This document shows positions 5,472 to 22,471 of a DNA stretch of 33,604 nt, piece after piece. Numbering within the stretch: position 1 is the stretch's first letter; each line of letters opens with the position of its first letter. Source of the stretch: a bacterium (lineage in GTDB: Bacteria > Krumholzibacteriota > Krumholzibacteriia > LZORAL124-64-63); contig JAIFKS010000168.1 in assembly GCA_020049465.1 (NCBI GenBank), forward strand, positions 1 through 33,604, given 5' to 3'. The notes beneath the pieces were generated by a model. It did no database searches. It worked only from the letters and a program-made list of their open reading frames with translations, and was not told the DNA's origin. The position numbers were made by a program, and so were the translations under genes.

Positions 5472-5472
5472 G

Positions 5473-11052: not shown

Positions 11053-11070
11053 GGAATCGCCTCCCGCCTC

Positions 11071-11520
11071 TCAGCGGATGATCGAGCGCAGCACCGTCAA
11101 TGGTGACGGCGGCTGTGCGGTCGCCAACGCCAGCAGCGCGGTGACCTCTTCGGCGCGCAGCGGCAGCATGGCCGCCTCGGCCGGCGTGAACCAGGCGGCG
11201 CGCAGGGTGTGTTCGTCGGCGATCGATTTCGGCGGCGCTTCGTCCAACGGCGAAGCCGCGAACACCACGCGCAGGCGCGCGCCGCCTTCGTTCAGGACGG
11301 TGTGCTCGATGCGGTACACGCCGTCCAGGCGCACGTCCACGCCGGCTTCCTCGCGCACTTCCCGCAATGCGGCGGCGGTCAGTGTCTCGCCCGGCTCGAC
11401 ACGCCCGGCCGGCAGGTACCAGCCGCCCCCGTGGTCCGTTTCCTCGACCAGCAGGTACCGGTCGCCGCGACGGACCAGCACCAGGGCATAGAACCAGGCC
11501 GGCATCGATTCGCGGGCCAT
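11071..11520 (-). CDS. NUDIX hydrolase
   Basis: 149 aa; Nudix box GRVEPGETLTAAALREVREEAGV (GX5EX7REUXEEXGU). Confidence 0.85.
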   Translation of the reverse strand: MARESMPAWFYALVLVRRGDRYLLVEETDHGGGWYLPAGRVEPGETLTAAALREVREEAGVDVRLDGVYRIEHTVLNEGGARLRVVFAASPLDEAPPKSIADEHTLRAAWFTPAEAAMLPLRAEEVTALLALATAQPPSPLTVLRSIIR

Positions 11521-11560
11521 CGTTCGCTGCTCCCCATATCCGTTTGGTACGAATCACGAG

Positions 11561-11959
11561 TCAGGACGGATCCCCGTCCAGATTGATGACCGTCAGACAC
11601 ACGCCCGCCACCGTGCAGGCCGCGGCGATGGCGGCAAGATAAGGCCGGACCGGCGGGGTCAGCCCCACATCCGCCGTGTGGTATTCCACATCGGTCACGC
11701 CCAACTCGCGCAGGCGATGGGCGACGTCCCGGGACAAGGCCTCGGCCTCGTCGGGCGACAGCAGGTGGTCGTACCAGGGAATCGGGTCGGCGGCCGCCAG
11801 CAATCCGAAGTGGCCCGACAGGATGTACAAGGGCGTGCCCCGGGCCTGGCCGCGGCGGCACAGATCGCGCAACCGCTCGCTCCGGTAGCGGTTGATGGCC
11901 GGCAGGGGCCGCTTGTCGGAGCGTTTGGGGCCGCTGCAGTAGGAACAGAGGATCTTCAT
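11561..11959 (-). CDS. Hypothetical protein (~132 aa), N-terminus MKILCSYCSGPKRSDKRPLP
   Basis: ATG at 11959 preceded by GGAGG (4-nt spacer). High GC3 and protein-like composition. The ORF-track start at 12049 adds an Arg-rich extension without a ribosome-binding site. Confidence 0.55.
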   Translation of the reverse strand: MKILCSYCSGPKRSDKRPLPAINRYRSERLRDLCRRGQARGTPLYILSGHFGLLAAADPIPWYDHLLSPDEAEALSRDVAHRLRELGVTDVEYHTADVGLTPPVRPYLAAIAAACTVAGVCLTVINLDGDPS

Positions 11960-12100
11960 GTCGCCTCCGGGGGCTCGAGATCCGCCATGTCGGTCATCCG
12001 TTTCGGCGACGAACCGCCGGCGGCAGGTCCCGCCCGAATGATCGTACACGAAGGCGCGCCCAAAGGCCAGAAATCCCCGCGTTCCGCCGCTGGTATTTCC

Positions 12101-12412
12101 CTAGTCGAAGTCGAAGATCTCCGACAGGAAGCCACCTTTCTTTTTCTTCCTGTAGTGGCTGTCGTAACGGTCACCGTCGTGGCGTTCGCGCGACCGGTCG
12201 TCGTCGCGGTCATCATCGCGGGTGGCCGGCGAAGAGGACGGCGGGATCGCCTGTGGCCTCGCGCCCTGGGTCCCGTCCTGGGTGCGCTCGATGATCTTGT
12301 CCAACTCGCCGCGATCCAGCCAGACGCCGCGGCAGTGCGGACAGAAATCGATCTCGATGCCCTGGCGGTCGGACATCATGAGTTGCACCGTCGGGCAGAC
12401 TGGGCAGTTCAT
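12101..12412 (-). CDS. zf-TFIIB-type zinc-ribbon domain protein with a disordered, highly charged C-terminal tail
   Basis: MNCPVCPTVQLMMSDRQGIEIDFCPHCRGVWLDRGELDKII is the classic CPxC…CxxCxGxWLDxGEL zinc ribbon. The tail is RDDDRDDDRSRERHDGDRYDSHYRKKKKGGF. Confidence 0.8.
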   Translation of the reverse strand: MNCPVCPTVQLMMSDRQGIEIDFCPHCRGVWLDRGELDKIIERTQDGTQGARPQAIPPSSSPATRDDDRDDDRSRERHDGDRYDSHYRKKKKGGFLSEIFDFD

Positions 12413-12502: not shown

Positions 12503-12787
12503 TCAACCGGAATGGGCGGCCGGAGCGGTGACGTTCTCGAGTTCGGTCAGGCCCGCGAGCGCCTGCTCGCGGCTGTCACCGCACATTTCCGCCGACGGAC
12601 GCAGGGAGGCGCAGACCCGGGGACGATCGGGCGCGTCGAAGATGCGGCAGCCGTAATCGGCCTGCAGATGGATGCAGGGCACAAAGGCGGGCTTTCCGGC
12701 CGGCATCCCGGGAATCGGTGAAGAGATCGAGGGGATGATGCAGCAGGCGCCGCAGCCGGGACGGCAGCCGGGGTCGTTGGTCTTCAT
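12503..12787 (-). CDS. YkgJ family cysteine-cluster protein (putative Zn/Fe-chelating domain)
   Basis: 94 aa; Cys clusters CRPGCGACC…[25 protein letters not shown]…MC. Confidence 0.7.
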
Positions 12788-12912: not shown

Positions 12913-14109
12913 TCAGGCGCCGGGCGTCGTCCGCTCGATCGCCAGCAGCGACACATCGTCGTCGGGCGAACCTCCGCACCAGTCCGTCACGACGGAGGCG
13001 ATCCGGTCGATCCCCGCGCGCAGCGGGAGATCGCGAACCCGCTCGATCTCGGAGATCAGGCGTTCCAGGCCGAACTCGTTCCCGCTTGCGTCGACGGTTT
13101 CGATGGCGCCGTCCGTGTAGAAGTAGAGGCGGTCGCCGGCTTCCAGGGTCAGGCGCTTGGACTCGTACCGCGTGTCTTCGACCATGCCGACCGGCAGCCC
13201 TCCGGCCGCGACCGGGGCGGCCGGCCCGCTTCGCGGCACGAGCACGGGCGCGGGATGACCCGCGACGACGTATTCGATCACGCCGGTTTCAGGGGCGGCG
13301 ATTCCGTAGACCAGCGTGAAGTACTGTCGGGTGCGGTCCATCGGAAACTGGCGATTCAATCGTTCCACGATGCGGGCGGGCGGTACGCTGGCCGCTCTTT
13401 CGCCCAGATTCTCCGTGACGAGGGCTCCCTCTCCGGGCGACAGGAGGTGCGTCAGCGTGAAGGACAGCAGAGCGGCCGCGACGCCGTGGCCGCTGACGTC
13501 CAGGATGTAGATCCCGACCCCGCCGTCAGGCAGGGGCACGATGCCGACCGCGTCGCCGGCAAGGTCATCGCACGGGTGGAAGGCATGAGCGAAATGAAGG
13601 GAGCCGGCATGCACGTCCGGCGGAGGCAGCAGTGACCGCTGGACGCCGGCTGCCAGCCTCACATCCTCCTCGAGCTCGTGTTTCGAGTGCCGCAGCGCTT
13701 CTTCGTCCTGGCGACGTGCCGTCACGTCCGACTGGACGCCGATGAAGTGCGTCAGGCGGCCGGCGCTGTCGTGCACCGGCGTGATCGACAGCCGGTTCCA
13801 GAACGGCTCGCCATCGCTGCGGTAGTTCAGGATTTCGACGAGACACTCGCGGCCGGCGCTCAACGCGGCCCGGATCTCGGCCACCGCGGCCGGATCCGTA
13901 TCCTTCCCCTGGAGGAACCGACAGTTGCGGCCGATCGCCGCCGAGGCGGCGTACCCCGTCATCCGCTCGAAGCCTTGGTTCACGTAGATCAGGGGGCGGC
14001 CGGGCGTCTGCGCGTCGGCGATGGCGATGCCCTCGGCCGCGACATCCAAGGCGCGATCCTTGAGCGTCAGCAGGTCCGCGGGATTGCCGTCGGGTGAGGG
14101 GGCCGTCAC
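12913..14109 (-). CDS. LOV-domain (blue-light, flavin) sensor fused to a PP2C/SpoIIE-type serine phosphatase
   Basis: LOV signature GIAIADAQTPGRPLIYVNQGFERMTGYAASAAIGRNCRFLQGKDTDP, with the adduct-forming Cys in NCRFLQG. PPM phosphatase motifs are in the C-terminal half (GDAVGIVPLPDGGVGIYILDVSGHG…YFYTDGAIE…DDDVSLLAIE). Chosen start is GTG 14109 preceded by GAGGA. The 5' 135 nt of the ORF-track call (to 14244) have low GC3 (gga, tct, ggt, aat, aag, gta…), so that extension is non-coding. Confidence 0.85.
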   Translation of the reverse strand: MTAPSPDGNPADLLTLKDRALDVAAEGIAIADAQTPGRPLIYVNQGFERMTGYAASAAIGRNCRFLQGKDTDPAAVAEIRAALSAGRECLVEILNYRSDGEPFWNRLSITPVHDSAGRLTHFIGVQSDVTARRQDEEALRHSKHELEEDVRLAAGVQRSLLPPPDVHAGSLHFAHAFHPCDDLAGDAVGIVPLPDGGVGIYILDVSGHGVAAALLSFTLTHLLSPGEGALVTENLGERAASVPPARIVERLNRQFPMDRTRQYFTLVYGIAAPETGVIEYVVAGHPAPVLVPRSGPAAPVAAGGLPVGMVEDTRYESKRLTLEAGDRLYFYTDGAIETVDASGNEFGLERLISEIERVRDLPLRAGIDRIASVVTDWCGGSPDDDVSLLAIERTTPGA

Positions 14110-14508
14110 GTGTTCCTCGTCGCTGGAGCCGGGGACATGTCCTCCAGGCGGGCCTCCCCTGCGGTGCGGGGTGAAGCGCCGGAAGAAGTTCGGAGAATTT
14201 ACCTTATTCCCCGCCTGCGCGCCACCAGACAGTCCCCCGAACACGCACCCGATCGGCAGTGCCGTTCACGACGGCGCGCGCAAAGGCCGGTCGCACCATT
14301 TCTGGCACGACCGGCCCCGATTGGGCTGTGGCTTTTTTCATCAGCGCGGCTTCTCACACGGAGACCGCGAAGTGGCCGACGCCCCTGCCGCACACAACGG
14401 GTGTGAGGTTCTCCAGACGCCAGCGCAAGACTGGCTCCGGTTGCGGTGCAGGACATGTTGGGCGGCAGGGGCGCGGCGCTCCCATCCGTGCCACGGCCCG
14501 TCGTTTCC

Positions 14509-15060
14509 CTACAGGTTGCCCGGGATCAGCACCGTGTCGATGACGTGGATGACGCCGTTGCTCGCCACGACATCGGCCTTGATGACCTTCGCGCCCGACA
14601 CCTTCACGCCGTCGGTGGCGTCGATCGTCAGCTTGGTGCCGTTCAACGAGTCGGCGCTCTTGATCTTCACGACATCGGCGGCGCGCACATCGCCGGCCAC
14701 CACGTGGTGCAGGAGCACCTTCTTCAACTGCTCGGGGTTGGCCAGGAGCTTCTCGACGGTGCCTTCCGGCAGCTTGGCGAACGCCTCGTCCGTCGGCGCG
14801 AACACCGTGAACGGACCCTTCTCCGTCAGTGTCGCCTGCAGGCCGGCGGCCTTCACGGCGGCGGTCAGCGTTTTGAAGCCGGCGGCTTCGGCCAGCGGGA
14901 AGATGGCCATCGGAGCGGCAGCAGCCGCGGCCGGCTTCGCGGCGGGATGCTCCTTCGCCTTCGCGGTCGGATGCTCGCTGCCGGCGGCGATGGTCAACTG
15001 CGGGGTCACGACCAGGGCGACCAGGGCCGCCGCGATCAGGGAGCGGGTGTGCTTCATCAT
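14509..15060 (-). CDS. Fasciclin (FAS1) domain protein, secreted
   Basis: ATGATG at 15060/15057. Signal peptide MMKHTRSLIAAALVALVVTPQLTIAAG. FAS1 motifs TVFAPTDEAF…LLHHVV…TVLIP. The ORF-track start at 15174 lies in an AT-rich promoter island. Confidence 0.85.
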   Translation of the reverse strand: MMKHTRSLIAAALVALVVTPQLTIAAGSEHPTAKAKEHPAAKPAAAAAAPMAIFPLAEAAGFKTLTAAVKAAGLQATLTEKGPFTVFAPTDEAFAKLPEGTVEKLLANPEQLKKVLLHHVVAGDVRAADVVKIKSADSLNGTKLTIDATDGVKVSGAKVIKADVVASNGVIHVIDTVLIPGNL

Positions 15061-15130
15061 GTCTGTATCCGTCCTTGGGCTGGGTGTTGTCTTTGGTGTC
15101 GTCTTCTTCGTCGCTCTTTCCACATCACCC

Positions 15131-15159
15131 ACGATAGCATCGTATATATTTTGTGTCAA
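15131..15159 (-). promoter_or_regulatory. Sigma70-like promoter (minus strand) for the fasciclin gene inside an AT-rich island
   Basis: Minus-strand reading: -35 TTGACA (plus 15154..15159), 17-nt spacer, -10 TATCGT (plus 15131..15136). ~70 nt upstream of ATG 15060. Confidence 0.4.
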
Positions 15160-15218
15160 GATATAAATGTACATTATTTATACACAAACAGGGGTAAACG
15201 AGATTTTTGGCTAACTCA

Positions 15219-15229
15219 TTGTTTGATAA
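15219..15229. promoter_or_regulatory. Shared 11-mer TTGTTTGATAA (minus-strand TTATCAAACAA), copy 1, ~160 nt upstream of the fasciclin ATG
   Basis: An identical 11-mer lies at 21380..21390, ~165 nt upstream of the histidine-kinase operon ATG. Both copies are in AT-rich islands, each followed 70-80 nt later by a -35-like TTGACA/TTGAAA. The flanks contain AACTCATT / AATGAGTT, which are reverse complements of each other. Confidence 0.3.
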
Positions 15230-16297
15230 TTAGTTAAGGATTTCGTTCAGCGCCTGGGCAAAGTCCGCTGACTTCGCGATCAGGCGTCCATCGATCGCCG
15301 CAAGCGTCTCCGCGTAGCTGGACGCCGCCGCGCCGCCCACCAGAAGGCCCACTTCCGGGGCCAGCAGGCGCCGCAGCGTCTCCAGTTGTCCGGCCACGAC
15401 GGCATCGCCGGCGGGATAGATCAGGCTCACGAAAACGGCGCGCGCCTGCCGCTGGGCCGCCGCCGCCGCGATTTCCTCGGCGGGCAGATCGGCGCCCAGG
15501 TAGAGAACGGCCCAGCCCGCCTCGAGCCCGAGCGAAGCGGCCATCAGGGCGCCCAGTTCGTGCCGGTTGCGCAGCGGCGTGGCCACGACCAGCAGAGGGG
15601 CGCCGGAATCGGGCACCTGGCTCGCGTTCGCGGCGGCCAGGAAGGAATGGACGATGGTCGAGGCCATGTGCTCGTGCGCGATGCGCAACGTTCCCTGGCG
15701 CCACAATTCGCCGACCCGGGTCAGCAGCGGTGCGAGCAGCTCCTGCCTGAGCACCGGCCGGCTCAGATGCAGGGTCGCCTGCGAAAGCACGTTTTCGAGG
15801 CCCGAGGCATCGAGCGCCGCCACCGCCACCAGGGCCTGCTCCAGCAGCATGTCGGGTGACAGGACCGCTCTTTCGGGCAGGGGACGGCCGGTACGATCCG
15901 GACGCTCCTCACCCGCCGAGCGGCCGGCCGTCGGCATCGCCCCCGGCCCCAGCGCTTCCACCAGCGCCCGCAACTCTACCAGCGGCTGATTCGCCACTTC
16001 GCCGATGCGGTGGTCCGCGGCCGTCAACACGCGCAGCAGGGAAAGCCGTTCGATGTCGAGCTCGGAATAGCGCCGACGCCCCGTCTCCGTGCGCCCGGGC
16101 AGCACCACGCCGTACCGCCGCTCCCAGGCCCGCAACACGAGCTGGCTCAATCCCGTGCGCCGGGCCACCACGGCAATGCTGTGGCGCGGCGTCGTGTCGG
16201 GTGCGGTGGCGGTCGGGATGTGGGCTCCGGGATTCACGGCGGGGACTTTCGTTGAGGGCGGGGCTGGTGACGAACATTCTGGCGTGATGTTAATCAA
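15230..16297 (-). CDS. CarH/LitR-like light-responsive transcriptional regulator: MerR-family HTH + cobalamin (B12)-binding domain
   Basis: HTH HSIAVVARRTGLSQLVLRAWERRYGVVLPGRTETGRRRYSELDIERLSLLRVL aligns with CarH (…[31 protein letters not shown]…). C-terminal B12-binding motifs NRHELG (DxHxxG-type), SLIY and LLVGGAA. The ORF-track start is TTG at 16297; GTG at 16246 or 16237 are alternatives. The stop at 15230 is firm. Confidence 0.85.
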   Translation of the reverse strand: MINITPECSSPAPPSTKVPAVNPGAHIPTATAPDTTPRHSIAVVARRTGLSQLVLRAWERRYGVVLPGRTETGRRRYSELDIERLSLLRVLTAADHRIGEVANQPLVELRALVEALGPGAMPTAGRSAGEERPDRTGRPLPERAVLSPDMLLEQALVAVAALDASGLENVLSQATLHLSRPVLRQELLAPLLTRVGELWRQGTLRIAHEHMASTIVHSFLAAANASQVPDSGAPLLVVATPLRNRHELGALMAASLGLEAGWAVLYLGADLPAEEIAAAAAQRQARAVFVSLIYPAGDAVVAGQLETLRRLLAPEVGLLVGGAAASSYAETLAAIDGRLIAKSADFAQALNEILN

Positions 16298-16303
16298 TTG
16301 TAT

Positions 16304-16325
16304 AGTATTTGTCCATCAAAATACT
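16304..16325. promoter_or_regulatory. Imperfect inverted repeat AGTATTTG-tccat-CAAAATACT in the AT-rich divergent CarH-like / SRPBCC promoter region (candidate operator)
   Basis: Seen directly in the sequence. It sits between the divergently transcribed regulator and SRPBCC genes. Confidence 0.3.
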
Positions 16326-16851
16326 GCCGGAATCCGACGCGGGGGTCTGCCCGACCCGCGCCCCGGCTCCTCCGATCCGGGAGCTGCCCGTGACCCCCCA
16401 TCTGCTGACCAGCGAACAGTTCGTCCCCCGCCCCCGCGACGAGGTGTTCGCCTTCTTTGCCAAACCGGAGAACCTCGGGACCATCACCCCGCCCTGGCTG
16501 GACTTCCGCATCCTGACGCCGTCACCGGTGCCGATGGAGCGCGGCGCCCTGATCGACTATGTCATCCGGGTGGGACCGGCGCCCACGCGCTGGCGCACGC
16601 TGATCACGCGGCACGAACCGCCGCACGCCTTCGTCGACGAGCAACTGCAGGGCCCCTACAGCTTCTGGCACCACACGCACACCTTCGAGGAGACGGACGG
16701 CGGCACGATCATCGGCGACCGCATCCTCTATGTGCTGCCGTTCGGTGTCCTCGGCGTGATCGTCGAACGGCTGTTCATCCGGCGCCAGCTGCAGGCCATC
16801 TTCGCCCACCGGCGCCGCGTCATCGCCGAACGATTCGGCGGCCAGACCTGA
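16309..16851 (+). CDS. SRPBCC (START/Bet v1/polyketide-cyclase-like) ligand-binding family protein
   Basis: …EQFVPRPRDEVFAFFAKPENLGTITPPWLDFRILTP…YVIRVGPAPTRWRTLITRHEPPHAFVDEQLQGPYSFWHHTHTFEE…RILYVLPFGVLG is a typical SRPBCC fold pattern. The start is ATG 16309, or GTG 16390 preceded by GGGAG. Confidence 0.7.
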   Translation: MSIKILPESDAGVCPTRAPAPPIRELPVTPHLLTSEQFVPRPRDEVFAFFAKPENLGTITPPWLDFRILTPSPVPMERGALIDYVIRVGPAPTRWRTLITRHEPPHAFVDEQLQGPYSFWHHTHTFEETDGGTIIGDRILYVLPFGVLGVIVERLFIRRQLQAIFAHRRRVIAERFGGQT

Positions 16852-16861
16852 TCCGGCCGGA

Positions 16862-18460
16862 CTACGCCATCGCGCAACCAAGGCACGGTCGCTCGACGCC
16901 CTGGTCCGGATTGTCGCGCACCACGGCGGCGAATTCGTCGCTGTGAGCCAGGAATACGTCCAGAAGCTCGGGATCGAAGTGGCGGCCGCGGCCCTCCCGC
17001 ATGGTGGCGAAGACTTCGTCCGCCGGTCGCGCTTCACGGTACACGCGCCGGCTGCTCAAGGCGTCGAACACGTCGACGATGGCGGTGATGCGGCCCTCCA
17101 GCGAGATCTCCTCGCCGGTCAGACCACGCGGATAGCCGGTGCCGTCCCAGCGCTCGTGATGCTGAAGGGCGATGCGCGCGGCGACGCGCATGATCCGCTG
17201 CTCCGACTTGCAGAGGATCCCGTGGCCCAGCGCGGCGTGGTTCCGCATCACGGCGAACTCGTCGGGTGTCAGCCGGCCCGGCTTGTTCAGGATCCGATCG
17301 GGGATGCCGACCTTGCCCACATCGTGCATCGGCGCCGCCATCCGGATCACCGCCGCCGTCTCGGCATCCACCCCCGCGTGCAGCGCCAGCATCCGCGCCA
17401 TCTCGCCGACGCGCAGCACGTGGTTGGCTGTTTCCAGGCTGCGGGCCTCCACCAGTTCGCTCAGGGTGCGGATCATCTCGCGCTGGCTCTCGATGATCTC
17501 GCGCGTCAGGCTCGCGTTCGCGTAGGCCAGCGTCACACTGGCGAAGTAGACGCGCATCAGGTCGCGCTCCAGGCGGGGCAGTGTCCCGACGCCCACCAGC
17601 ACGAACAGCAGTTCGTCGGCGCCCGCATGTCCGGCCGGGCAGCGCCCGCAGCAGACGTCATCACGCCACACGATCGATTTTTCGGCGGCCGACCGCGCGA
17701 GCATTTCGCGCACACCGTCGTCGAGCATCCCTTCGACGGGAGTGCCCACGCGGTCGGCCCAGGGCCCCGTGCCGGCAGCCAGCACAAAGCCCTTTTGCCG
17801 CCTCCGTGCGGCAAATCCCTGGGGCGCCGGCCCGGCGCCCCGCCGGGCGATCGCCAGCAACTGCGCCAGGACCTCCCCGGCGAATTCCCTCTGTCTGCCG
17901 CCGTGCAGCAGGGCGCCGCTGGCGTCGAGCACGTGCTGCAGGCTGCGCCGGCTCTGCTCCAGGGCGCGGATGTCGCGCCACGCGCGCAGCGCGCTGGTCA
18001 CCGACGTGCACAGCTTGTCGGCCGTCAGTTCCGTCTTGGCGCGGTAGTCGTTGATGTCGTAGCGCATCACCACGTCGCGTTCGGGCGCCTGACCCGGCTG
18101 TCCCGTGCGCAGGATGATCCGCACGTTGTGGTTCCCCAGCCCCTCCCGCACATGGTGCGCCAGGCGCAGGCCGGCGTCGTCGCTCTCCATCACCACATCC
18201 AGCAGGATCACCGCGATGTCCGGATGGGACGCCAGCACCACGCGCGCCTCGGCCGCCGAATAGGCCGCCAGCAGGCATACCGGACGCCCTTCGAAGCGGA
18301 AGCGGCCCAGCACGAGACGGGTCACGTGATGCACGTCCTCCTCGTCGTCGACCACCAGCAGCTTCCAGCAACTGTGGTCGGCGCAGTTGGCCATGGCCGG
18401 CTCGTCGGCGAAGCGGATCTCGTCGCCCGTCCCGAGGATGTTATCCATCGCTTCCGGCAT
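16862..18460 (-). CDS. Response regulator (REC) fused to an HD-GYP c-di-GMP phosphodiesterase domain
   Basis: REC: KLLVVDDEEDVHHVTRLVL…VILLDVVMESDDAGLRL. HD-GYP: …HAGVDAETAAVIRMAAPMHDVGKVGIPDRILNKPGRLT…HHERWDGTGYPRGL. ATG 18460 is preceded by GGAGG (6-nt spacer). It overlaps the upstream kinase gene by 20 nt. Confidence 0.9.
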   Translation of the reverse strand: MPEAMDNILGTGDEIRFADEPAMANCADHSCWKLLVVDDEEDVHHVTRLVLGRFRFEGRPVCLLAAYSAAEARVVLASHPDIAVILLDVVMESDDAGLRLAHHVREGLGNHNVRIILRTGQPGQAPERDVVMRYDINDYRAKTELTADKLCTSVTSALRAWRDIRALEQSRRSLQHVLDASGALLHGGRQREFAGEVLAQLLAIARRGAGPAPQGFAARRRQKGFVLAAGTGPWADRVGTPVEGMLDDGVREMLARSAAEKSIVWRDDVCCGRCPAGHAGADELLFVLVGVGTLPRLERDLMRVYFASVTLAYANASLTREIIESQREMIRTLSELVEARSLETANHVLRVGEMARMLALHAGVDAETAAVIRMAAPMHDVGKVGIPDRILNKPGRLTPDEFAVMRNHAALGHGILCKSEQRIMRVAARIALQHHERWDGTGYPRGLTGEEISLEGRITAIVDVFDALSSRRVYREARPADEVFATMREGRGRHFDPELLDVFLAHSDEFAAVVRDNPDQGVERPCLGCAMA

Positions 18461-21218
18461 GGGATGCCTCCACGTGTTGCGGGATGACCACGGAGAACCG
18501 GGTGCCCTTGCCCGGCGCGCTCGCGCAGGTGATGGTGCCGCCCAGGGCGTGCTTGACGTTGCTCCAGACGATGTGCATGCCCAGGCCGGTTCCGCCGCGG
18601 TTGCGCCTGGTCGTGTAGAACGGCTCGTACAGGCGCTGTTTCTGTTCCCGGTTCATGCCGCGGCCGTCGTCCCTGTATTCGATGACGACGCCCTGGCCGC
18701 CGCTCGTGGCCGAGATGGTGATGGTGCCGACCAGGAGGTCCTCGAATCCGTGATCCAGGGAATTCACGACCAGGTTGGCGATGATGCGGTACAGCGCGCC
18801 CGGATCGCCGTGCATCATGATGCCGCGCGGACAGTCGACCAGCAGCCGGTGCGCCGTGCCCTTGAAGCGCGGCCGCAGGCTCAGCACGATCTCGTCCAGG
18901 TATTCGGCCAGGTCGAACTCCCGCTCCTGCGCGCTGGACTGGTCCACCGCCACCTGCTTGAAGTTCTGGATCAGGTCGGCCGCGCGGACCAGGTTGGCCT
19001 GCACGGCGCCTGCGGCCTGGCTCATCGATTCCAGCAAAGCAGCCAGGCCCGAACGCGTCAGCCGGCCTTCCCGCAGGCTCATGCCGCCCTCGGCGCAAAG
19101 GTCCGCCAGGTGGGACGCGGCCGTCACGCCGATGCCCACCGGTGTGGCCATCTCGTGCGCGACGCCGGCCACCATCGCGCCGAGCGCCGCCATCTTCTCG
19201 GCCTCCAGAAGCGCCTGGTGTGCGTCGATGACCAGCTGCGCGTTGCGCCTTTCGGCGGTCACGTCGCGGGCCACGCCCTCGACCGAGATGACGCGGCCTT
19301 CGGCGTTCAACACGGGAACGGCGTGGATCTCCAGCACCAGCCGCTCGCCGTCCGCTCGCGGAACGATCACGTCGAAAGGCAGCTGCCGCACACCGCCGGT
19401 CACGGACACCAGCCGCCGGCGGACCGCCGCGTTGGCCGGTAGCGACATCCATTCGCGCGAGCGCTGGTTCAGCGCGTCGAGGTCCGTCAGTCCGGTCAGG
19501 CTCCGGAACGAGGAACTGACGAACGTGAACCGGAGCTTCGGGTCGTGCGAATAGAAGATGAACCGGTCGCCGAGGCTTTCCATGATGCGCCGATAGCGTT
19601 CCTCGCTGTCGCGCAGCGCCTCGTTGGCGGAACGCAGTTCCGCGGTTGCGGCTTCCACGCGCTTCTCCAGATCCTCGTTCAGGAGCCGCACGCGCTCTTC
19701 ACTGTTCCGCAGCGCCTGCTCGGACAATTTCCGGTCGGTCACGTCCCGCAGCGATTCGATCGCTCCCGCCATCCGGCCGTCCCGATCGCGCAACGGCGCG
19801 GCGGTCATGCCGACGTGCGCGCCTCGCCCCCCGTGCAGACCTGCCAGATAGCGCTCGGCGCGCAGCGTTTCGCCGCGCGAATCCACGCCGTGCGCGGCCG
19901 TGAGCCCGCCCTTGCCTATCCCGGCCAGGATGAGATCGACGAGATCCGGCACCGCGTCGCCGCACAGGACGTTCGCGTACGCGCGTTCGCCGCGACCGAG
20001 CATCGCGTCCTTGCCGATGCCGGTCATCTCTTCCAGCGCCCGGTTCCAGGACACGATGCGGCCCCGCTCATCGACCACGAAGGTGGCGTCGGGCAGGAAT
20101 TCGAGCGTGTCCGCCAGCCTTCGGTGCGCGGCGTCGCGTTCGTGGTCCGCCTGACGGCGCTGCCAGGCGCTGGCCAGGATCTGCCCCACGGTCTCCAGCA
20201 GCGCGACGTCCTCATCGGTCCAGTGCCCCACGCTGCGCACGGAATGGAAGGCGAAGAGCCCGGCGATGCGGCCGTCGTGGAACATCGGGATGATGAGGGC
20301 CGACCGCGTCTCCTGTTTCAGCAGCCGTTCCTTCACGGCCGACGCCGCCACCGGCATCGCCGCGACGTCCTCGATGTGCACGATGCGGCCGGCCGCGACC
20401 TGCTTCTGCAGCCAGGGCAGCGCCGGCAACGACGGCGCCATGTCCTTCAACGCCACGGGCTCGACGCCCTCGGCGGCCCAGCCGAATTCCCAACTCAGCG
20501 TCGCCTGGTCGTCCAGCAGCCGCCCGACGAAGCAGCGGTCAACCGTCGCCAGGCCGCCGACCGCCACCAGGGCGCGGGTCAGGGCATCGTCCATCTCGCC
20601 TTCGGTGGCCGAGGAAATGGTGCGCAGGATGTTGGTGATGGCCGCCGACGCGGCGCGCCTGTGGTCCAACTGGGCGCGGGACAGGCGTTCGGAACTGAGA
20701 TCCGTGAAAACGCAGCGCAGGCCGCGGACACCTTGTCCGGCCTCGCCGATGATGGGCGCCGCCACGACGCGGGCCGGCATGTCGTCGTGTCCGGCCAGCG
20801 CCAGGTCGAATTCGCCGACCGCCGGCACCAGGCCCTGTTCGGCTTCGGCCAGCAGGCTCATGAAGGCCGCACGCTGCGCCGGGTGCACCAAGTGCGTGAC
20901 CGGCGCGCCTTCGAGGCTGGTCCCGACGGCGGTCGCCAGCGGCGAACTGGAACCGTCGTGAACCAGAAGGATCACGCCCCGGTTGTCGGTTTCGACGATG
21001 AGTTCGGGAAGAAGCCGACCGAGGTCACGGATCCAGCGGCGGTAGGCCGGCTGCTCGCCCTCGAGGGGCGGCGAAGCCTGGCCGGATCCGTCGGCCTTCC
21101 AGCGGATCAGGCGGGTCAGAGCCAGAGCCAGGGCCGCGCCCGCCGCCACGGGCACCATCGCGCCCAGGTCACTGATGGCGGCGGCCCTGTATACAATTTG
21201 TGCCCAATCCGCAGACAT
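18441..21218 (-). CDS. Multi-sensor hybrid-type histidine kinase (TM, GAF, multiple PAS domains, coiled coil, HisKA-like H-box, HATPase_c)
   Basis: ATG 21218 is preceded by GGGAGA (5-nt spacer) and a TM helix (DLGAMVPVAAGAALALALTRLI). GAF (…HIEDVAAMPVAASAVKERL…IIPMFHDGRIAGLFAFHS…), PAS (…FVVDERGRIVSWNRALEEMTGI…), H-box GVAHEMATPVG, ATPase G-boxes (DDGRGM…GGTGLGMHIV…GKGTRFSVVIP). The ORF-track start at 21311 lies in the AT-rich promoter island. Confidence 0.9.
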   Translation of the reverse strand: MSADWAQIVYRAAAISDLGAMVPVAAGAALALALTRLIRWKADGSGQASPPLEGEQPAYRRWIRDLGRLLPELIVETDNRGVILLVHDGSSSPLATAVGTSLEGAPVTHLVHPAQRAAFMSLLAEAEQGLVPAVGEFDLALAGHDDMPARVVAAPIIGEAGQGVRGLRCVFTDLSSERLSRAQLDHRRAASAAITNILRTISSATEGEMDDALTRALVAVGGLATVDRCFVGRLLDDQATLSWEFGWAAEGVEPVALKDMAPSLPALPWLQKQVAAGRIVHIEDVAAMPVAASAVKERLLKQETRSALIIPMFHDGRIAGLFAFHSVRSVGHWTDEDVALLETVGQILASAWQRRQADHERDAAHRRLADTLEFLPDATFVVDERGRIVSWNRALEEMTGIGKDAMLGRGERAYANVLCGDAVPDLVDLILAGIGKGGLTAAHGVDSRGETLRAERYLAGLHGGRGAHVGMTAAPLRDRDGRMAGAIESLRDVTDRKLSEQALRNSEERVRLLNEDLEKRVEAATAELRSANEALRDSEERYRRIMESLGDRFIFYSHDPKLRFTFVSSSFRSLTGLTDLDALNQRSREWMSLPANAAVRRRLVSVTGGVRQLPFDVIVPRADGERLVLEIHAVPVLNAEGRVISVEGVARDVTAERRNAQLVIDAHQALLEAEKMAALGAMVAGVAHEMATPVGIGVTAASHLADLCAEGGMSLREGRLTRSGLAALLESMSQAAGAVQANLVRAADLIQNFKQVAVDQSSAQEREFDLAEYLDEIVLSLRPRFKGTAHRLLVDCPRGIMMHGDPGALYRIIANLVVNSLDHGFEDLLVGTITISATSGGQGVVIEYRDDGRGMNREQKQRLYEPFYTTRRNRGGTGLGMHIVWSNVKHALGGTITCASAPGKGTRFSVVIPQHVEASHAGSDG

Positions 21219-21379
21219 GGACGTCTCCCAAGCTGGGTACATCCATGTCGTGAACCGGTCCCGGCGCCTTCCGAGAGGGGAAGAGTACGCGGCCGCTGGA
21301 AGCGATTTCAAGACGTTCTAATAATTTCACTGATATCAGCATACGGAAATCCCTAATTACAATGAGTTATCGATTCGGT

Positions 21380-21390
21380 TTGTTTGATAA
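21380..21390. promoter_or_regulatory. Shared 11-mer TTGTTTGATAA, copy 2, ~165 nt upstream of the histidine-kinase operon start
   Basis: Identical to 15219..15229; lies in the AT-rich intergenic island 21219..21478. Confidence 0.3.
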
Positions 21391-21478
21391 GAAATGATTG
21401 CGAAACCCTGCGGGAAGTGATGGGATGGGAAAATCACATGCTGCGGCTAGGGCTACACTTTTGTTAAGTTATTTATTG

Positions 21479-22471
21479 TCAACCAACTAATGCGGTCGCC
21501 ACGGAAGCCGCCCGGGCCAGCGGCAAGCGGATCCGGAACAACGCCCCACCGAGAGGCGAATCGCAGACTTCGACCCCCCCTCCCAAACCGGCGGCACAGG
21601 CCTTGACCGAGAACAATCCGAGTCCGTTGCCGTCGGATTTGGTCGTGGCCAGCGACGTGAACAGGTCGGCCCGCCGTTCCACCGGAACCCCCGGACCGTT
21701 GTCGTGCACTTCGATCACGGCCTGCCCGTCCCTGGCGGACACCTGCACTTCGACGACACCCTTCGCGCCGGAAGCCTGTGCGGCGTTCAGGACCAGGTTA
21801 CCCACCAACTGGTGCATCAGGACGGGATTGGCGTTGATCACCACACCGGGCTCACCTTCGCAGGACACCCGGCACCGCCGCATGTCGACATGCGAACGCA
21901 GCACGGCCACCGACTCGCGCGCCGCTTCGCGCACGTCCAGCGGCGCGCCCTCGCGCGTCACGATGGCCTGCGCCGAGTCCAGCAGGCGCTGGTTCAGACC
22001 GACCAGGCGCTTCACCGAATGGCGCAGACGCGTCAGGTTTTCACTGCCGCCGCCGTCCTCTTCCATCATGTCGAGATCCGCGAGCGCCACGGTCAGCACG
22101 TTGTTGGCGTCATGCGCGATCGAAGCCGCGGTCAGGCCCGCGAAAACGCGCCCCTCGTTCACCACCAGCGCCTGTTCGCGCCGCAGCAGTTCGCGGGCGT
22201 CATGCTCCATGCGCCGCATGGCCCAGCGCGCGCCCGCGAAGATCAGCAGCGACGTCACCGCCACATAGAGCACGCCCTTGATGGTCTCGATGCGCCGCAG
22301 TTCCTCGACGCTGTGGGAGGCGCCGGCGGCCAGGTACCCGGACAGGATGATGTAGGTGGACGCCAGCAGGACGTAAGCGCCCGCCAGCATGGCGGCATAG
22401 CGGGTGCTGTTCAAGCCGGAACCTCCGGTTGGGATGGGCACTGCGACGCGAGTCACCGGACGATCGGACAT
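21479..22471 (-). CDS. Small membrane-anchored histidine kinase (2 TM + HisKA-like + HATPase_c)
   Basis: ATG 22471 is preceded by GAGG (4-nt spacer). TM helices (AMLAGAYVLLASTYIILSGYLAA; VLYVAVTSLLIFAGARW), H-box LTAASIAHDANNVL, ATPase motifs (NLVLNAAQAS…DNGPGV…GNGLGLFSV). Confidence 0.8.
   Translation of the reverse strand: MSDRPVTRVAVPIPTGGSGLNSTRYAAMLAGAYVLLASTYIILSGYLAAGASHSVEELRRIETIKGVLYVAVTSLLIFAGARWAMRRMEHDARELLRREQALVVNEGRVFAGLTAASIAHDANNVLTVALADLDMMEEDGGGSENLTRLRHSVKRLVGLNQRLLDSAQAIVTREGAPLDVREAARESVAVLRSHVDMRRCRVSCEGEPGVVINANPVLMHQLVGNLVLNAAQASGAKGVVEVQVSARDGQAVIEVHDNGPGVPVERRADLFTSLATTKSDGNGLGLFSVKACAAGLGGGVEVCDSPLGGALFRIRLPLARAASVATALVG

What the first reader, a model, noticed from the sequence alone, without database searches (positions are those of the whole stretch)
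12913..22471. Dense photosensory/signalling island: LOV-PP2C phosphatase, CarH/LitR-type B12 regulator, multi-PAS/GAF kinase with HD-GYP response regulator, extra small kinase
Within about 9.5 kb on one strand there are two chemically distinct light receptors. One is a flavin LOV domain (NCRFLQG) fused to a PP2C phosphatase. The other is a MerR-B12 CarH/LitR-like regulator. Alongside them is a two-component operon whose response regulator is an HD-GYP c-di-GMP phosphodiesterase, overlapping its kinase by 20 nt. A second small histidine kinase, a fasciclin protein and a divergently transcribed SRPBCC ligand-binding protein are also present. The arrangement suggests a module that integrates blue light (LOV), AdoB12-dependent light sensing (CarH) and c-di-GMP turnover. 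The LOV-PP2C fusion is the partner-switching type of output (RsbU/RsbP-like), but no STAS/anti-sigma partner is present in the window.
Basis: partly seen in the sequence, partly recalled or inferred. Interest (0 to 1): 0.7.

Follow-up and report, generated by a model that had tools for sequence, protein, structure and literature searches.

The report
B12 light switch beside unrelated sensors

Summary
Observation confirmed. All seven genes and their motifs are present: GRNCRFLQG LOV fused to an intact PP2C; a MerR-B12 CarH with Wx9EH and the full B12 motif; REC-DUF3369-HD-GYP overlapping its kinase by 20 nt; a small kinase, a fasciclin and an SRPBCC gene.

Interpretation only partly supported. 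Across eight related, probably Krumholzibacteria-like lineages, the stable unit is SRPBCC divergent from carH, then fasciclin, then usually DUF4397. LOV-PP2C occurs in one of the eight, where it and a small CxxCxxCC gene replace DUF4397. The kinase/HD-GYP pair sits at the locus in four of the eight, also exists without CarH, and is absent from 80 distant CarH loci and 80 LOV-PP2C loci.

The carH promoter carries three perfect 11-bp CarH-type direct repeats, unique in the window. The fasciclin promoter carries a conserved repeat pair. The LOV and kinase promoters carry none.

A fasciclin gene sits next to carH in 19 of 80 loci from at least six phyla. This link is absent from the papers searched.

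Best reading: an AdoB12/CarH light-derepressed envelope unit next to independent sensors. Known kinds, modest interest.

The parts
15230..16237 (-). carH: class-I CarH/LitR-type AdoB12 photoreceptor-repressor (335 aa as called; ORF extends to 16297)
   Evidence: Pfam MerR_1, B12-binding_2, B12-binding. T. thermophilus CarH/LitR 5C8D and 3WHP, E 1e-23, aligned over both domains. RAWERRY at residues 36-42, Wx9EH at 179-190, NRHELG-x41-SLI-x27-GG. W, EH and lower-ligand His invariant in 25 homologues.
16288..16315 (-). P_carH operator: three perfect tandem 11-bp direct repeats, ttgaTggACAa / atacTatACAa / ttgaTtaACAt, overlapping a promoter-like TGGACA-17-TAACAT in the carH/SRPBCC divergent intergenic region
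   Evidence: Only match in the window to TnnACA-N5-TnnACA-N5-TnnACA; 0 expected in shuffles. Promoter scan. DR1-DR2 conserved in L006, L007, L009, L172 and L173. Matches the published CarH operator consensus nnnnTnnACAn (PMC9304148).
16390..16851 (+). SRPBCC (Polyketide_cyc) ligand-binding protein, divergent from carH; in most relatives it is followed by an OmpA-like gene that this lineage has lost
   Evidence: Pfam 1.9e-7. 80-83% identical and in the same divergent position in L006, L007, L009, L172 and L173. SRPBCC homologue near CarH in 8 of 80 distant loci, and epimerase-DUF2867 fusions in 7 of 19 CarH-fasciclin loci.
15131..15184 (-). P_fas: TTGACA-17-TATCGT promoter (15131-15159) preceded by TGTATA-N5-TGTACA (15168-15184), which is two CarH-type repeats on the opposite strand
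   Evidence: Promoter scan, 10 of 12 matches with TG extension. Two-repeat motif hit, local-composition shuffle P = 0.008. Block conserved in L006, L007, L010 and L092, and in looser form in L172 and L173.
14509..15060 (-). Secreted single-FAS1 (fasciclin) protein; inferred direct CarH target
   Evidence: Pfam Fasciclin 6.7e-40. Signal peptide read in sequence. Closest solved homologues CupS and R. sphaeroides Fdp, E 1e-32; AstaP only 1e-11 to 1e-13. Adjacent to CarH homologues in 19 of 80 genome loci from at least six phyla.
14285..14318 (-). Perfect 15-bp GC-rich hairpin in the 400-nt fasciclin/LOV spacer; probable transcript end of the fasciclin gene
   Evidence: RNA fold of 14240-14510(-): -141.9 kcal/mol, z = -4.0, 0 of 200 shuffles as stable. 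Only a short U-tract follows, so terminator function is inferred.
12913..14109 (-). LOV-PP2C: FMN-type LOV domain (about 13717-14052; adduct Cys codon 13921-13923), helical linker, SpoIIE/RsbU-type PP2C (about 12931-13530)
   Evidence: Pfam. 142 solved LOV structures, best E 4.9e-38, with GRNCRFLQG and flavin-pocket residues aligned. PP2C half matches RssB 3ES2 at 8.5e-16 and Rv1364c at 2e-9, with DVSGHG intact. More than 1,600 homologues. Present at this locus only in this lineage.
12503..12787 (-). orf94: small CxxCxxCC (PF03692, YkgJ-like) protein; with LOV-PP2C it fills the slot held by DUF4397 in relatives
   Evidence: Pfam E 7.3e-5, 23.8 bits against a cut-off of 23. Called as a gene in public assemblies. 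L172 and L173 have fasciclin-DUF4397-Zn-ribbon, where the window has fasciclin-LOV-PP2C-orf94-Zn-ribbon.
16862..18460 (-). Response regulator REC-DUF3369-HD-GYP ('RpfY' architecture); probable c-di-GMP phosphodiesterase
   Evidence: Pfam HD_5 1.1e-36, DUF3369 4.4e-24, Response_reg 24.2 bits, below the cut-off. REC residues DD/D/T/K read in sequence. PmGH 4MCW E 8.5e-60. Architecture described in preprint 10.1101/2021.11.05.467447.
18441..21218 (-). Cognate sensor kinase: one TM helix, GAF, PAS domains, HisKA-like H-box, HATPase; signal unknown
   Evidence: Pfam. ATG at 21218 and the reading frame conserved in L009. PDB matches only through the kinase core; the third PAS is weakly LOV-like (E about 1e-3) but has no Cys at the adduct position. 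The 20-nt overlap with the regulator is conserved in L009.
21479..22471 (-). Orphan small histidine kinase with two TM helices; syntenic backbone gene of the clade
   Evidence: Pfam HATPase_c 2.5e-21. 71-77% identical orthologue beside the ABC transporter in L006, L007, L009 and L172, with or without the big kinase.

Best explanation
The 9.5-kb stretch is a juxtaposition of three separable signalling units, not one module.

(1) A conserved B12-based light switch. Inferred mechanism: in the dark, AdoB12-bound CarH oligomers sit on tandem 11-bp TnnACA repeats that overlap the carH promoter and flank or overlap the -35 box of the fasciclin promoter. UV, blue or green light photolyses AdoB12, CarH leaves the DNA, and carH, the secreted fasciclin protein and probably the divergent SRPBCC gene are derepressed. 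In relatives the same unit also carries an OmpA-like protein and a DUF4397 lipoprotein, so the output looks like light-dependent remodelling of the cell envelope or of adhesion, not carotenoid synthesis.

(2) A stand-alone LOV-PP2C. Blue light forms the FMN-Cys adduct, the helical linker switches on the RsbU/RsbP-type phosphatase, and this dephosphorylates a phospho-Ser/Thr protein encoded elsewhere. This gene, together with a small CxxCxxCC gene, replaced DUF4397 in this lineage only, and it appears to have its own transcript.

(3) An ordinary two-component pair: a GAF/PAS kinase whose signal is unknown and not evidently light, and a REC-DUF3369-HD-GYP regulator that lowers c-di-GMP. An orphan kinase lies alongside. 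Their presence here reflects clade-level synteny.

Shown here: domain and motif content, operator sequences and their conservation, and gene-neighbourhood statistics. Inferred: cofactor binding, light response, repression, the phosphatase substrate, and phosphodiesterase activity.
For: Motifs and structure-based homology for all three sensor types.

Synteny series:
- LOV-PP2C is present only in the window lineage. DUF4397 fills its slot in L006, L007/8, L010, L092, L172, L173 and the P0137 contig.
- The kinase/regulator pair is at the locus in the window, L009, L172 and L173.
- The pair is absent from the locus in L006, L007 and the P0137 contig.
- It is present without CarH-fasciclin on the P0248 contig, and lies elsewhere in L174.

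Census:
- Fasciclin is adjacent to CarH in 19 of 80 loci across at least six phyla, always within about 2.2 kb.
- SRPBCC is near CarH in 8 of 80.
- HD-GYP regulator and big kinase: 0 of 80. True LOV-PP2C: 0 of 80.
- Fasciclin is the joint top Pfam neighbour of the CarH family.

Operators:
- The triple repeat is unique in the window.
- The two-repeat motif occurs upstream of 52 of 80 CarH homologues and 14 of 19 adjacent fasciclin genes, at 2.9-3.8 per kb against 0.057 per kb background.
- Local-composition shuffles give about 1 hit against 75 observed.
- 0 of 74 LOV-PP2C homologues have it. In the window it occurs only at P_carH and P_fas.
- The published CarH operator rules match (PMC9304148).

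Other:
- A stable hairpin follows the fasciclin gene.
- LOV-PP2C neighbours elsewhere are heterogeneous, with no STAS or anti-sigma gene.
Against: - No experiment: AdoB12 binding, DNA binding, light induction and enzyme activities are all inferred from sequence.
- In most distant genomes the fasciclin and carH genes share one divergent intergenic region, so the 14 of 19 operator count is not independent of the carH count. Independent fasciclin promoters exist only in the window's own clade, and in L172 and L173 the upstream repeat pair is degenerate.
- No convincing SRPBCC promoter was found, and only 1 of 8 distant SRPBCC genes has the motif upstream.
- LOV-PP2C does recur beside light-regulon-type genes in a minority of other lineages: fasciclin in L025/L026/L079 and L077, a class-I CarH with DUF1295 in L068. 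This hints that its position here may not be wholly accidental.
- The kinase/regulator pair stays at the locus in half of the related lineages, and synteny at this depth cannot exclude a functional link.
- Most LOV-PP2C contigs are short, so a distant partner gene would have been missed.
Confidence: 0.68

Rival explanations
1. Integrated photosensory hub. LOV-PP2C, CarH and the kinase/HD-GYP pair act in one pathway that combines blue light, B12-dependent light sensing and c-di-GMP to control a common output such as fasciclin-mediated adhesion.
For: - Two chemically different photoreceptors lie 1.1 kb apart.
- LOV-PP2C recurs next to fasciclin or CarH-type light-regulon genes in two or three other lineages: L025/L079, L077 and L068.
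- The kinase/regulator pair is kept at the locus in two different arrangements, in the window and in L009.
- The closest characterised fasciclin homologue, Fdp, is an adherence factor (PMC7561615), and c-di-GMP classically controls attachment. The thematic fit is my own inference.
Against: - LOV-PP2C is at the locus in 1 of 8 related lineages.
- The kinase/regulator pair and CarH-fasciclin each exist without the other.
- 0 of 80 CarH loci carry either. Only 1 of 80 LOV-PP2C loci carries CarH, and none carries the HD-GYP regulator.
- No CarH operator lies upstream of LOV-PP2C, either kinase or orf94.
- The big kinase has no chromophore signature.
- The LOV-adjacent fasciclin genes elsewhere lack CarH-type repeats.
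Confidence: 0.12
2. Hierarchical coupling by transcription. Light-driven derepression of P_fas reads through into LOV-PP2C and orf94, so CarH gates how much of the blue-light phosphatase is made. On this view the replacement of DUF4397 put LOV-PP2C into an existing light-induced operon slot.
For: - LOV-PP2C sits exactly where the co-operonic DUF4397 gene sits in relatives; the fasciclin-DUF4397 gap is only 11 nt in L007, L172 and L173.
- It is on the same strand as the fasciclin gene.
- No sigma-70-like promoter was found in the 400-nt spacer.
- The hairpin after the fasciclin gene is followed by only a short U-tract.
Against: - The spacer is 400 nt long and folds very stably (z = -4.0), with a perfect 15-bp GC hairpin that would be expected to stop or pause transcription.
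- The promoter scan covers only sigma-70 consensus sites, so an alternative-sigma promoter could be present.
- LOV-PP2C homologues elsewhere are not linked to CarH operators (0 of 74).
Confidence: 0.15
3. The MerR-B12 protein is not a light sensor. Either it reports cobalamin availability or it is a B12-independent CarA-like repressor, in which case the locus has only one photoreceptor.
For: B12-independent (CarA) and non-B12 LitR classes exist (PMC9304148, PMC9758184). The acidic residue of the classic D/ExHxxG motif is Asn here. The score against NCBIfam's CarH model is well below its cut-off, 108 against 400 bits.
Against: - The Wx9EH motif is intact. PMC9304148 uses this to tell CarH from CarA, and it caps the adenosyl group.
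- The lower-ligand His and the x41/x27 spacing are canonical.
- All of these are invariant across 25 homologues.
- The best structural matches are the photoreceptor CarH/LitR of T. thermophilus.
- DNA photolyase recurs in the CarH-fasciclin neighbourhoods (3 of 19).
Confidence: 0.05

Closest known systems
CarH / class-I LitR AdoB12 photoreceptor-repressors (T. thermophilus CarH 5C8D, M. xanthus CarH, B. megaterium CarH)
   Same: MerR HTH with RxWERRY; four-helix bundle with Wx9EH; Rossmann B12 domain with the lower-ligand His and canonical spacing. The operator at its own promoter is three tandem 11-bp nnnnTnnACAn repeats overlapping promoter elements.
   Different: - 30-35% identity range only, and below NCBIfam's CarH cut-off.
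- Asn replaces Asp/Glu before the His.
- The neighbouring and inferred target genes are a secreted fasciclin and an SRPBCC protein (plus OmpA-like and DUF4397 lipoprotein genes in relatives), not carotenoid genes. No crt family is among the recurrent neighbours.
- The fasciclin promoter has an inverted arrangement of repeat pairs instead of a simple tandem array.
PmSB-LOV / PmlR2 of Pseudomonas mendocina (short LOV acting on an adjacent class-II LitR; PMC9758184)
   Same: A LOV photoreceptor gene next to a LitR/CarH-family repressor gene. The LitR half-sites (TGTACA / GGTATA) resemble the TGTATA/TGTACA elements here.
   Different: There the LOV is a short, effector-less protein that binds and inactivates a B12-less LitR. 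Here the LOV is fused to a PP2C phosphatase, the CarH has its own B12 chromophore, and the adjacency is not conserved (1 of 8 lineages; 1 of 80 LOV-PP2C loci).
RsbP/RsbU-type partner-switching PP2C phosphatases and the LOV-STAS protein YtvA of Bacillus subtilis (from my own knowledge); the LOV-SpoIIE class listed in PMC4844311
   Same: N-terminal PAS-type sensor, helical linker and SpoIIE/PP2C domain, as in RsbP. Nearest solved PP2C domains are RssB and Rv1364c of the same clade. LOV-SpoIIE fusions are a recognised bacterial LOV effector class.
   Different: No STAS substrate or anti-sigma kinase is encoded next to this gene or next to any of about 80 homologues. No experimental study of a bacterial LOV-PP2C was found in the library.
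RpfY-family REC-DUF3369-HD-GYP response regulators (VCA0210 of V. cholerae, DVU0722 of D. vulgaris; preprint 10.1101/2021.11.05.467447)
   Same: Identical three-domain architecture with a diverged REC, intact HD and HHExxDGxGYP motifs, and a translationally coupled kinase.
   Different: Only family-level similarity. Substrate (c-di-GMP or 3'3'-cGAMP; 5Z7C is also a hit) and the kinase's signal are unknown.
Single-FAS1 bacterial proteins: R. sphaeroides Fdp (adherence factor) and cyanobacterial CupS; algal carotenoid-binding AstaP
   Same: Single FAS1 domain with a signal peptide like Fdp. E 1e-32 to Fdp and CupS. The Fdp knockout lowers adherence about 100-fold (PMC7561615).
   Different: Fdp is controlled by the redox Prr system and is not light-regulated in wild type. 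AstaP is much more distant (E 1e-11 to 1e-13), and its carotenoid binding is described as an algal neofunctionalisation that a cyanobacterial homologue lacks (PMC10147662).

Membership tests
LOV (flavin-binding PAS) photoreceptor domain | PAS fold with the GXNCRFLQ signature, including the adduct-forming cysteine | tested here: met
   GRNCRFLQG, Cys63 of the 398-aa protein. Pfam PAS_9 1.7e-21. Aligned identically to solved LOV domains.
LOV (flavin-binding PAS) photoreceptor domain | Conserved flavin-pocket Asn/Asn/Gln (NYR..G.PFWN, FxGxQxD) | tested here: met
   LNYRSDGEPFWN and FIGVQSD align residue for residue with 9VF7. 142 LOV chains match at E <= 1e-8.
LOV (flavin-binding PAS) photoreceptor domain | FMN binding and a reversible 447-to-390-nm photocycle | not testable with these tools
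   Requires purified protein.
RsbU/RsbP/SpoIIE-type PP2C partner-switching phosphatase | Full-length SpoIIE/PP2C domain with metal-binding aspartates | tested here: met
   SpoIIE 1e-40 covering profile positions 1-191 of 192. DVSGHG, YTDG and DDDVS present. RssB 3ES2 at 8.5e-16.
RsbU/RsbP/SpoIIE-type PP2C partner-switching phosphatase | Genomic association with a STAS anti-anti-sigma substrate and an anti-sigma kinase | tested here: not met
   None in the window. None among the 82 immediate neighbours of LOV-PP2C homologues. A partner elsewhere in the genome cannot be excluded.
Class-I CarH/LitR AdoB12 photoreceptor | MerR-type HTH with RxWERRY in the recognition helix | tested here: met
   RAWERRY at residues 36-42. 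Invariant in 25 homologues.
Class-I CarH/LitR AdoB12 photoreceptor | Intact Wx9EH motif, which distinguishes CarH from B12-independent CarA | tested here: met
   WRQGTLRIAHEH at 179-190. Criterion taken from PMC9304148.
Class-I CarH/LitR AdoB12 photoreceptor | D/ExHxxG/P-x41-SxT/V-x22-27-GG cobalamin motif | tested here: met
   NRHELG-x41-SLI-x27-GG. Spacing is exact. Asn for Asp/Glu and Ile for Thr/Val are conservative deviations.
Class-I CarH/LitR AdoB12 photoreceptor | Operator of tandem 11-bp nnnnTnnACAn repeats overlapping promoter elements | tested here: met
   Three perfect repeats at 16288-16315, unique in the window. The motif occurs upstream of 52 of 80 homologues, against about 1 expected.
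Class-I CarH/LitR AdoB12 photoreceptor | AdoB12-dependent oligomerisation and DNA binding, abolished by light | not testable with these tools
   Requires EMSA or footprinting with purified protein in dark and light.
Class-I CarH/LitR AdoB12 photoreceptor | Control of carotenoid synthesis genes (the classical regulon) | tested here: not met
   No crt gene in the 33.6-kb window. No crt family among the top 25 families listed near CarH-fasciclin pairs. The rest of the genome was not available. This is a typical feature of the family but is not required for membership.
RpfY-type HD-GYP response regulator | REC domain with acidic pocket, phospho-acceptor Asp, and Thr and Lys | tested here: inconclusive
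   Pfam Response_reg scores only 24.2 bits, below the 30.2 cut-off. VVDDEED, ILLDVVM, RTG and YRAK were read in sequence at the expected spacing. Diverged REC domains are noted for this family.
RpfY-type HD-GYP response regulator | DUF3369 (GAF-like) middle domain plus HD and HHExxDGxGYP motifs | tested here: met
   DUF3369 4.4e-24, HD_5 1.1e-36. PMHDVGK and HHERWDGTGYP. PmGH 4MCW at 8.5e-60.
RpfY-type HD-GYP response regulator | c-di-GMP phosphodiesterase activity | not testable with these tools
   Requires an enzyme assay. 3'3'-cGAMP is an alternative substrate (5Z7C hit).
AstaP-type carotenoid-binding FAS1 proteins | Close sequence relationship to Scenedesmaceae AstaP and demonstrated carotenoid binding | tested here: not met
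   E 1e-11 to 1e-13 to AstaP, against 1e-32 to Fdp and CupS. A cyanobacterial FAS1 homologue did not bind carotenoids (PMC10147662). Binding itself is untestable here.

The most novel reading that the evidence does not exclude
A secreted fasciclin (FAS1) protein is an ancient, direct output of B12-based light sensing in non-phototrophic bacteria of at least six phyla, giving light-controlled adhesion or envelope remodelling. In this Krumholzibacteria-like lineage a blue-light LOV-PP2C has been recruited into the same operon slot, next to a c-di-GMP phosphodiesterase system, so that two light inputs and c-di-GMP converge on surface behaviour. The first half alone, fasciclin as a conserved CarH target, I rate at about 0.7. 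The full convergent-hub reading is rated here.
Probability: 0.12. Interest if true: 0.65.

Novelty: new member of a known kind. Interest (0 to 1): 0.35.

Why it matters
For triage, the finding is a correct annotation with an over-reaching interpretation. Each sensor belongs to a described family, and their clustering is mostly lineage-specific synteny.

The useful residue is a testable and apparently undescribed regularity. Class-I CarH repressors in Gemmatimonadota, Acidobacteriota, Ignavibacteriota, Thermodesulfobacteriota, Eremiobacterota and this lineage are paired with a well-conserved secreted fasciclin gene. That gene is 48-70% identical across phyla, more conserved than CarH itself, and sits behind CarH-type operators.

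If confirmed, this would extend B12 photoregulation from pigment and repair genes to cell-surface proteins. It would also give bacterial FAS1 proteins, whose roles are poorly known, a defined regulatory context.

The LOV-PP2C family is large (more than 1,600 proteins), tightly conserved and apparently unstudied, but this window adds no clue to its substrate.

Tried and rejected
1. **Third operator-like site.** ACAAATTGTATACA at 21188-21201 lies in codons 6-10 of the big kinase, lacks the T of the first repeat, and is not conserved in L009, where the ATG and reading frame are. Treated as chance.
2. **Fasciclin as an AstaP-like carotenoid carrier.** Sequence is much closer to Fdp and CupS. The literature describes AstaP binding as an algal neofunctionalisation. 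No crt genes lie nearby. Kept only as a low-probability idea.
3. **orf94 as a hidden STAS partner.** It is a CxxCxxCC/YkgJ-like protein.
4. **Big kinase as a third photoreceptor.** No Cys in its LOV-like PAS, no phytochrome or bilin GAF similarity.
5. **Mobile-element origin of the insertions.** No tRNA, and no significant direct or inverted repeats at the junctions. GC3 is uniform.
6. **Structured RNA in the AT-rich leaders.** No Rfam family reaches its threshold anywhere in the window.
7. **CarH + CxxCxxCC + sensor-PP2C trio in Methylococcales (L168 and others).** This is real, but the phosphatase there is PAS-PAS, not LOV. The CxxCxxCC protein is YcgN-like with no detectable similarity to orf94 by phmmer, and all cases fall in one clade. 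Too loose to build on.
8. **Shared promoter elements among LOV-adjacent fasciclin genes elsewhere (L025, L077, L079).** None found.
9. **Equivalog-level names from NCBIfam.** No protein reaches a curated cut-off.

Full report
**1. What is in the sequence**

The window is about 68% GC, so real genes were separated from spurious ORFs by third-position GC and then scanned with Pfam.

| Gene | Coordinates | Main evidence |
|---|---|---|
| LOV-PP2C | 12913-14109 (-) | PAS_9, SpoIIE |
| Fasciclin, with signal peptide | 14509-15060 (-) | Fasciclin |
| MerR-B12 regulator (carH) | 15230-16237 (-) | MerR_1, B12-binding_2, B12-binding |
| SRPBCC | 16390-16851 (+) | Polyketide_cyc; divergent from carH |
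| REC-DUF3369-HD-GYP regulator | 16862-18460 (-) | HD_5, DUF3369 |
| GAF/multi-PAS kinase | 18441-21218 (-) | overlaps the regulator by 20 nt |
| Small two-TM kinase | 21479-22471 (-) | HATPase_c |

The identical locus occurs in at least five independent metagenome assemblies. The rest of the window holds surface-polysaccharide, OmpA, MacB-type ABC, NUDIX, GNAT and proline-dehydrogenase genes. It has no carotenoid, STAS, anti-sigma or B12-uptake genes, no tRNA and no Rfam family. Names attached to homologues at 55-70% identity suggest a Krumholzibacteria-like organism.

**2. Residue-level checks**

- **LOV domain.** It carries GRNCRFLQG with the adduct cysteine and the flavin-pocket Asn/Asn/Gln. 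It matches 142 solved LOV chains, best E 4.9e-38.
- **PP2C half.** It belongs to the RsbU/RssB/SpoIIE clade, and the DVSGHG metal site is intact.
- **MerR-B12 protein.** It aligns over both domains with T. thermophilus CarH/LitR at E 1e-23. It has RAWERRY, Wx9EH and NRHELG-x41-SLI-x27-GG. PMC9304148 uses these features to recognise B12-dependent CarH as opposed to CarA. The key residues are invariant in 25 homologues.
- **HD-GYP domain.** It has HD and HHERWDGTGYP, and is closest to the active phosphodiesterase PmGH (4MCW, E 8.5e-60).
- **REC-DUF3369-HD-GYP architecture.** This is the described 'RpfY' family.
- **Big kinase.** It matches solved structures only through its kinase core. Its LOV-like PAS has no cysteine at the adduct position, and nothing resembles a phytochrome.

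The locus therefore has two sequence-credible photoreceptors, not three.

**3. Co-conservation among relatives**

Neighbourhoods were recovered for eight lineages that carry the carH-fasciclin pair.

| Lineage | Gene order |
|---|---|
| L172 (backbone example) | ABC - small kinase - [kinase - regulator] - OmpA-like(-) - SRPBCC(-) <> carH - fasciclin - DUF4397 - Zn-ribbon - DUF6884 - NUDIX - GNAT |
| Window | ABC - 417-aa lipoprotein(-) - small kinase - kinase - regulator - SRPBCC(-) <> carH - fasciclin - LOV-PP2C - orf94 - Zn-ribbon - DUF6884 - NUDIX - GNAT |

- In the window the OmpA-like gene is gone. DUF4397 has been replaced by LOV-PP2C plus orf94, a small CxxCxxCC gene.
- LOV-PP2C is at this locus in 1 of 8 lineages. 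DUF4397 holds that slot in the other seven.
- A LOV-PP2C that is 83% identical (L011) has different downstream genes.
- The kinase/regulator pair is at the locus in four of eight lineages: the window, L009/10, L172 and L173. In L009 it sits on the other side of the small kinase. It moves together with about 250 nt of conserved leader.
- The pair is missing from the locus in L006, L007/8 and the P0137 contig.
- On the P0248 contig the pair sits beside OmpA-SRPBCC with no carH or fasciclin. In L174, at 70% identity, it lies between M1 peptidases with none of the other genes.

The two units are therefore separable in both directions. Their co-location in half of the clade is what ordinary synteny would give.

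**4. Wider census**

Two sets were compared with the window proteins by tblastn. The first was 80 CarH-family loci from species-representative genomes, 33-53% identical and from many phyla. The second was 80 LOV-PP2C loci from metagenomes, 60-69% identical and mostly on short contigs.

| Neighbour | Near CarH (of 80) | Near LOV-PP2C (of 80) |
|---|---|---|
| Fasciclin | 19, all within about 2.2 kb | 4 loci, representing 2 lineages |
| SRPBCC | 8 | 0 |
| DUF4397 | 3 | 0 |
| HD-GYP regulator | 0 | 0 |
| Big kinase | 0 | 0 |
| True LOV-PP2C | 0 | - |
| Class-I CarH | - | 1 |

- By Pfam, fasciclin is the joint most frequent immediate neighbour of the CarH family.
- The fasciclin proteins are 48-70% identical to the window's protein in loci where CarH is only 37-53% identical.
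- Within about 3.5 kb of the 19 carH-fasciclin pairs, the recurrent companions are epimerase-DUF2867 fusions (7-8), DUF4397 (4), DNA photolyase (3) and DUF378 (2). No carotenoid family appears.
- LOV-PP2C neighbours are heterogeneous: M24 peptidases, methyltransferases and others, with no STAS or anti-sigma kinase.
- A minority of LOV-PP2C loci sit beside light-regulon-type genes: L077 (fasciclin-DUF1295), L025/L079 (fasciclin) and L068 (amine oxidase <> class-I CarH - DUF1295).

This last point is the main evidence that keeps the integrated model from being dismissed outright.

**5. Operators**

- **carH promoter.** The carH/SRPBCC intergenic region contains ttgaTggACAa-atacTatACAa-ttgaTtaACAt. 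These are three perfect tandem copies of the published CarH repeat nnnnTnnACAn, overlapping a promoter-like TGGACA-17-TAACAT. It is the only such site in 33.6 kb, with 0-0.05 expected. The first two repeats are conserved in five related lineages.
- **Fasciclin promoter.** The fasciclin gene has its own promoter, TTGACA-17-TATCGT. It is preceded by TGTATA-N5-TGTACA, which is two repeats on the other strand. In relatives a further TTGACA-N5-TGTACA pair overlaps the -35 box. The block is conserved down to the lineage with 53% CarH identity (L092) and is looser in L172 and L173.
- **Across the census.**

| Region scanned for the two-repeat motif | Loci with a hit | Hits per kb |
|---|---|---|
| Upstream of CarH homologues | 52 of 80 | 2.9 |
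| Upstream of adjacent fasciclin genes | 14 of 19 | 3.8 |
| Upstream of other genes in the same loci | - | 0.057 |
| Upstream of LOV-PP2C homologues | 0 of 74 | 0 |

- **Composition control.** Shuffles that keep local composition give about 1 hit against 75 observed.
- **Within the window.** Only P_carH and P_fas score. The regions upstream of LOV-PP2C, both kinases and orf94 score zero.
- **Caveat.** In most distant genomes carH and the fasciclin gene are divergent and share one intergenic region, so the two counts are not independent.

A third partial match inside the first codons of the big kinase is not conserved and is treated as chance.

**6. How it most likely works**

Shown: a CarH-family protein with every sequence feature of a B12 photoreceptor, CarH-type operators at two promoters, and a phylogenetically broad carH-fasciclin linkage.

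Inferred from established CarH biology (PMC9304148):
- In the dark, AdoB12-CarH oligomers occlude P_carH and P_fas.
- Light photolyses the cofactor and derepresses carH, the secreted fasciclin and probably the divergent SRPBCC unit.

In relatives the flanking units also encode an OmpA-like exported protein and a DUF4397 lipoprotein. The closest characterised fasciclin homologue, Fdp, is an adherence factor. The output is therefore best described as light-dependent envelope or adhesion remodelling.

The 400-nt spacer after the fasciclin gene folds very stably (z = -4.0) around a perfect 15-bp hairpin. LOV-PP2C is therefore probably a separate transcript. By analogy with RsbP/RsbU (my own knowledge), its mechanism would be blue-light activation of a phosphatase acting on a phosphoprotein encoded elsewhere. 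That substrate is unknown.

The kinase/regulator pair is a conventional phosphorelay to a c-di-GMP (possibly cGAMP) phosphodiesterase, with an unknown input.

**7. Comparison with what is known, and novelty**

- Class-I CarH, its operator grammar, LOV-SpoIIE fusions (listed in PMC4844311) and RpfY regulators are all described.
- A LOV protein working with an adjacent LitR is also known, but through a different mechanism and a B12-less LitR (PMC9758184).
- No paper in the library links a bacterial fasciclin to CarH or LitR. None characterises a bacterial LOV-PP2C.

I file the locus as new members of known kinds. The one modestly new regularity is the conserved carH-fasciclin pair.

**8. Limits**

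- Neighbour calling in fetched loci used a simple ORF and GC3 heuristic.
- Most LOV-PP2C contigs are 1.3-6 kb.
No relative above 53% CarH identity is in that collection.
- Only 33.6 kb of this organism was available, so partner genes elsewhere (STAS, crt, btuB/cob) could not be sought.
- Nothing here is experimental.

Noticed in passing
window 12503-12787 (-); L139-L170, e.g. L168 9953-13854: orf94, just downstream of LOV-PP2C, is a CxxCxxCC (PF03692) protein. In ten Methylococcales loci a YcgN-like CxxCxxCC gene lies immediately downstream of carH. In three of these (L142, L159, L168) a PP2C-like gene follows; in L168, the only one read in full, it is a 627-aa PAS-PAS-PP2C without a LOV motif. 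This is a loose parallel to the window's CarH / LOV-PP2C / CxxCxxCC trio, but with different subfamilies and in a single clade.
   Followed up: partly
window 21219-21478 (-); L009 300-546: The AT-rich leader upstream of the big kinase is conserved between the window and L009, although the upstream gene differs. It includes a near-palindrome (TACGGAATTCCGTA in L009, TAGGGATTTCCGTA in the window). The kinase-regulator pair therefore moves as a cassette with its own control region. No Rfam match.
   Followed up: partly
window 21188-21201 (-): ACAAATTGTATACA, an exact match to the ACA-N5-TATACA core of the CarH sites, lies in codons 6-10 of the big kinase and uses codons that are rare for this genome. 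It is not conserved in L009, so it is probably chance, but a lineage-specific weak CarH site is not excluded.
   Followed up: yes
window 22990-24243 (+): 417-aa predicted lipoprotein (…MASC lipobox) with no Pfam or NCBIfam match. It is divergent from the small kinase and absent from all related loci examined, so it is a second lineage-specific insertion at this locus.
   Followed up: partly
L131, L133, L134, L160, L165 and other Gemmatimonadota loci, about 10900-12400: In 7-8 of the 19 CarH-fasciclin loci a roughly 480-600-aa NAD-epimerase fused to DUF2867 lies near carH; in several Gemmatimonadota loci a large ORF directly downstream of carH appears to be this gene. Two loci have a DUF378 membrane protein near the fasciclin gene. 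DNA photolyase is nearby in 3 of the 19 pairs. This suggests a broader conserved light regulon.
   Followed up: partly
L068 3758-9576; L077 46-2997: LOV-PP2C homologues beside DUF1295, amine-oxidase and fasciclin genes. In L068 a class-I CarH is also present. DUF1295, amine-oxidase and CMAS genes resemble, from my own knowledge, the furan/cyclopropane fatty-acid clusters that are light-induced via LitR in Pseudomonas.
   Followed up: partly
window 2916-10512 (+): Two large proteins with C-terminal FlgD_ig domains and a Wzy_C-TPR O-antigen-ligase-like protein form a conserved surface-structure cluster upstream. It is syntenic in L007 and L003.
   Followed up: no
window 31176-31562 (+): The AhpC/1-Cys peroxiredoxin ORF matches only the C-terminal half of the Pfam profile (positions 63-123). 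This suggests a mis-set start, a frameshift or a truncated gene.
   Followed up: no
window 25031-27501 (-): The longest ORFs of the MacB permease and the HlyD-type fusion protein overlap by about 460 nt. Public gene calls give 421 aa and 391 aa, so the long ORFs over-extend the true starts.
   Followed up: no
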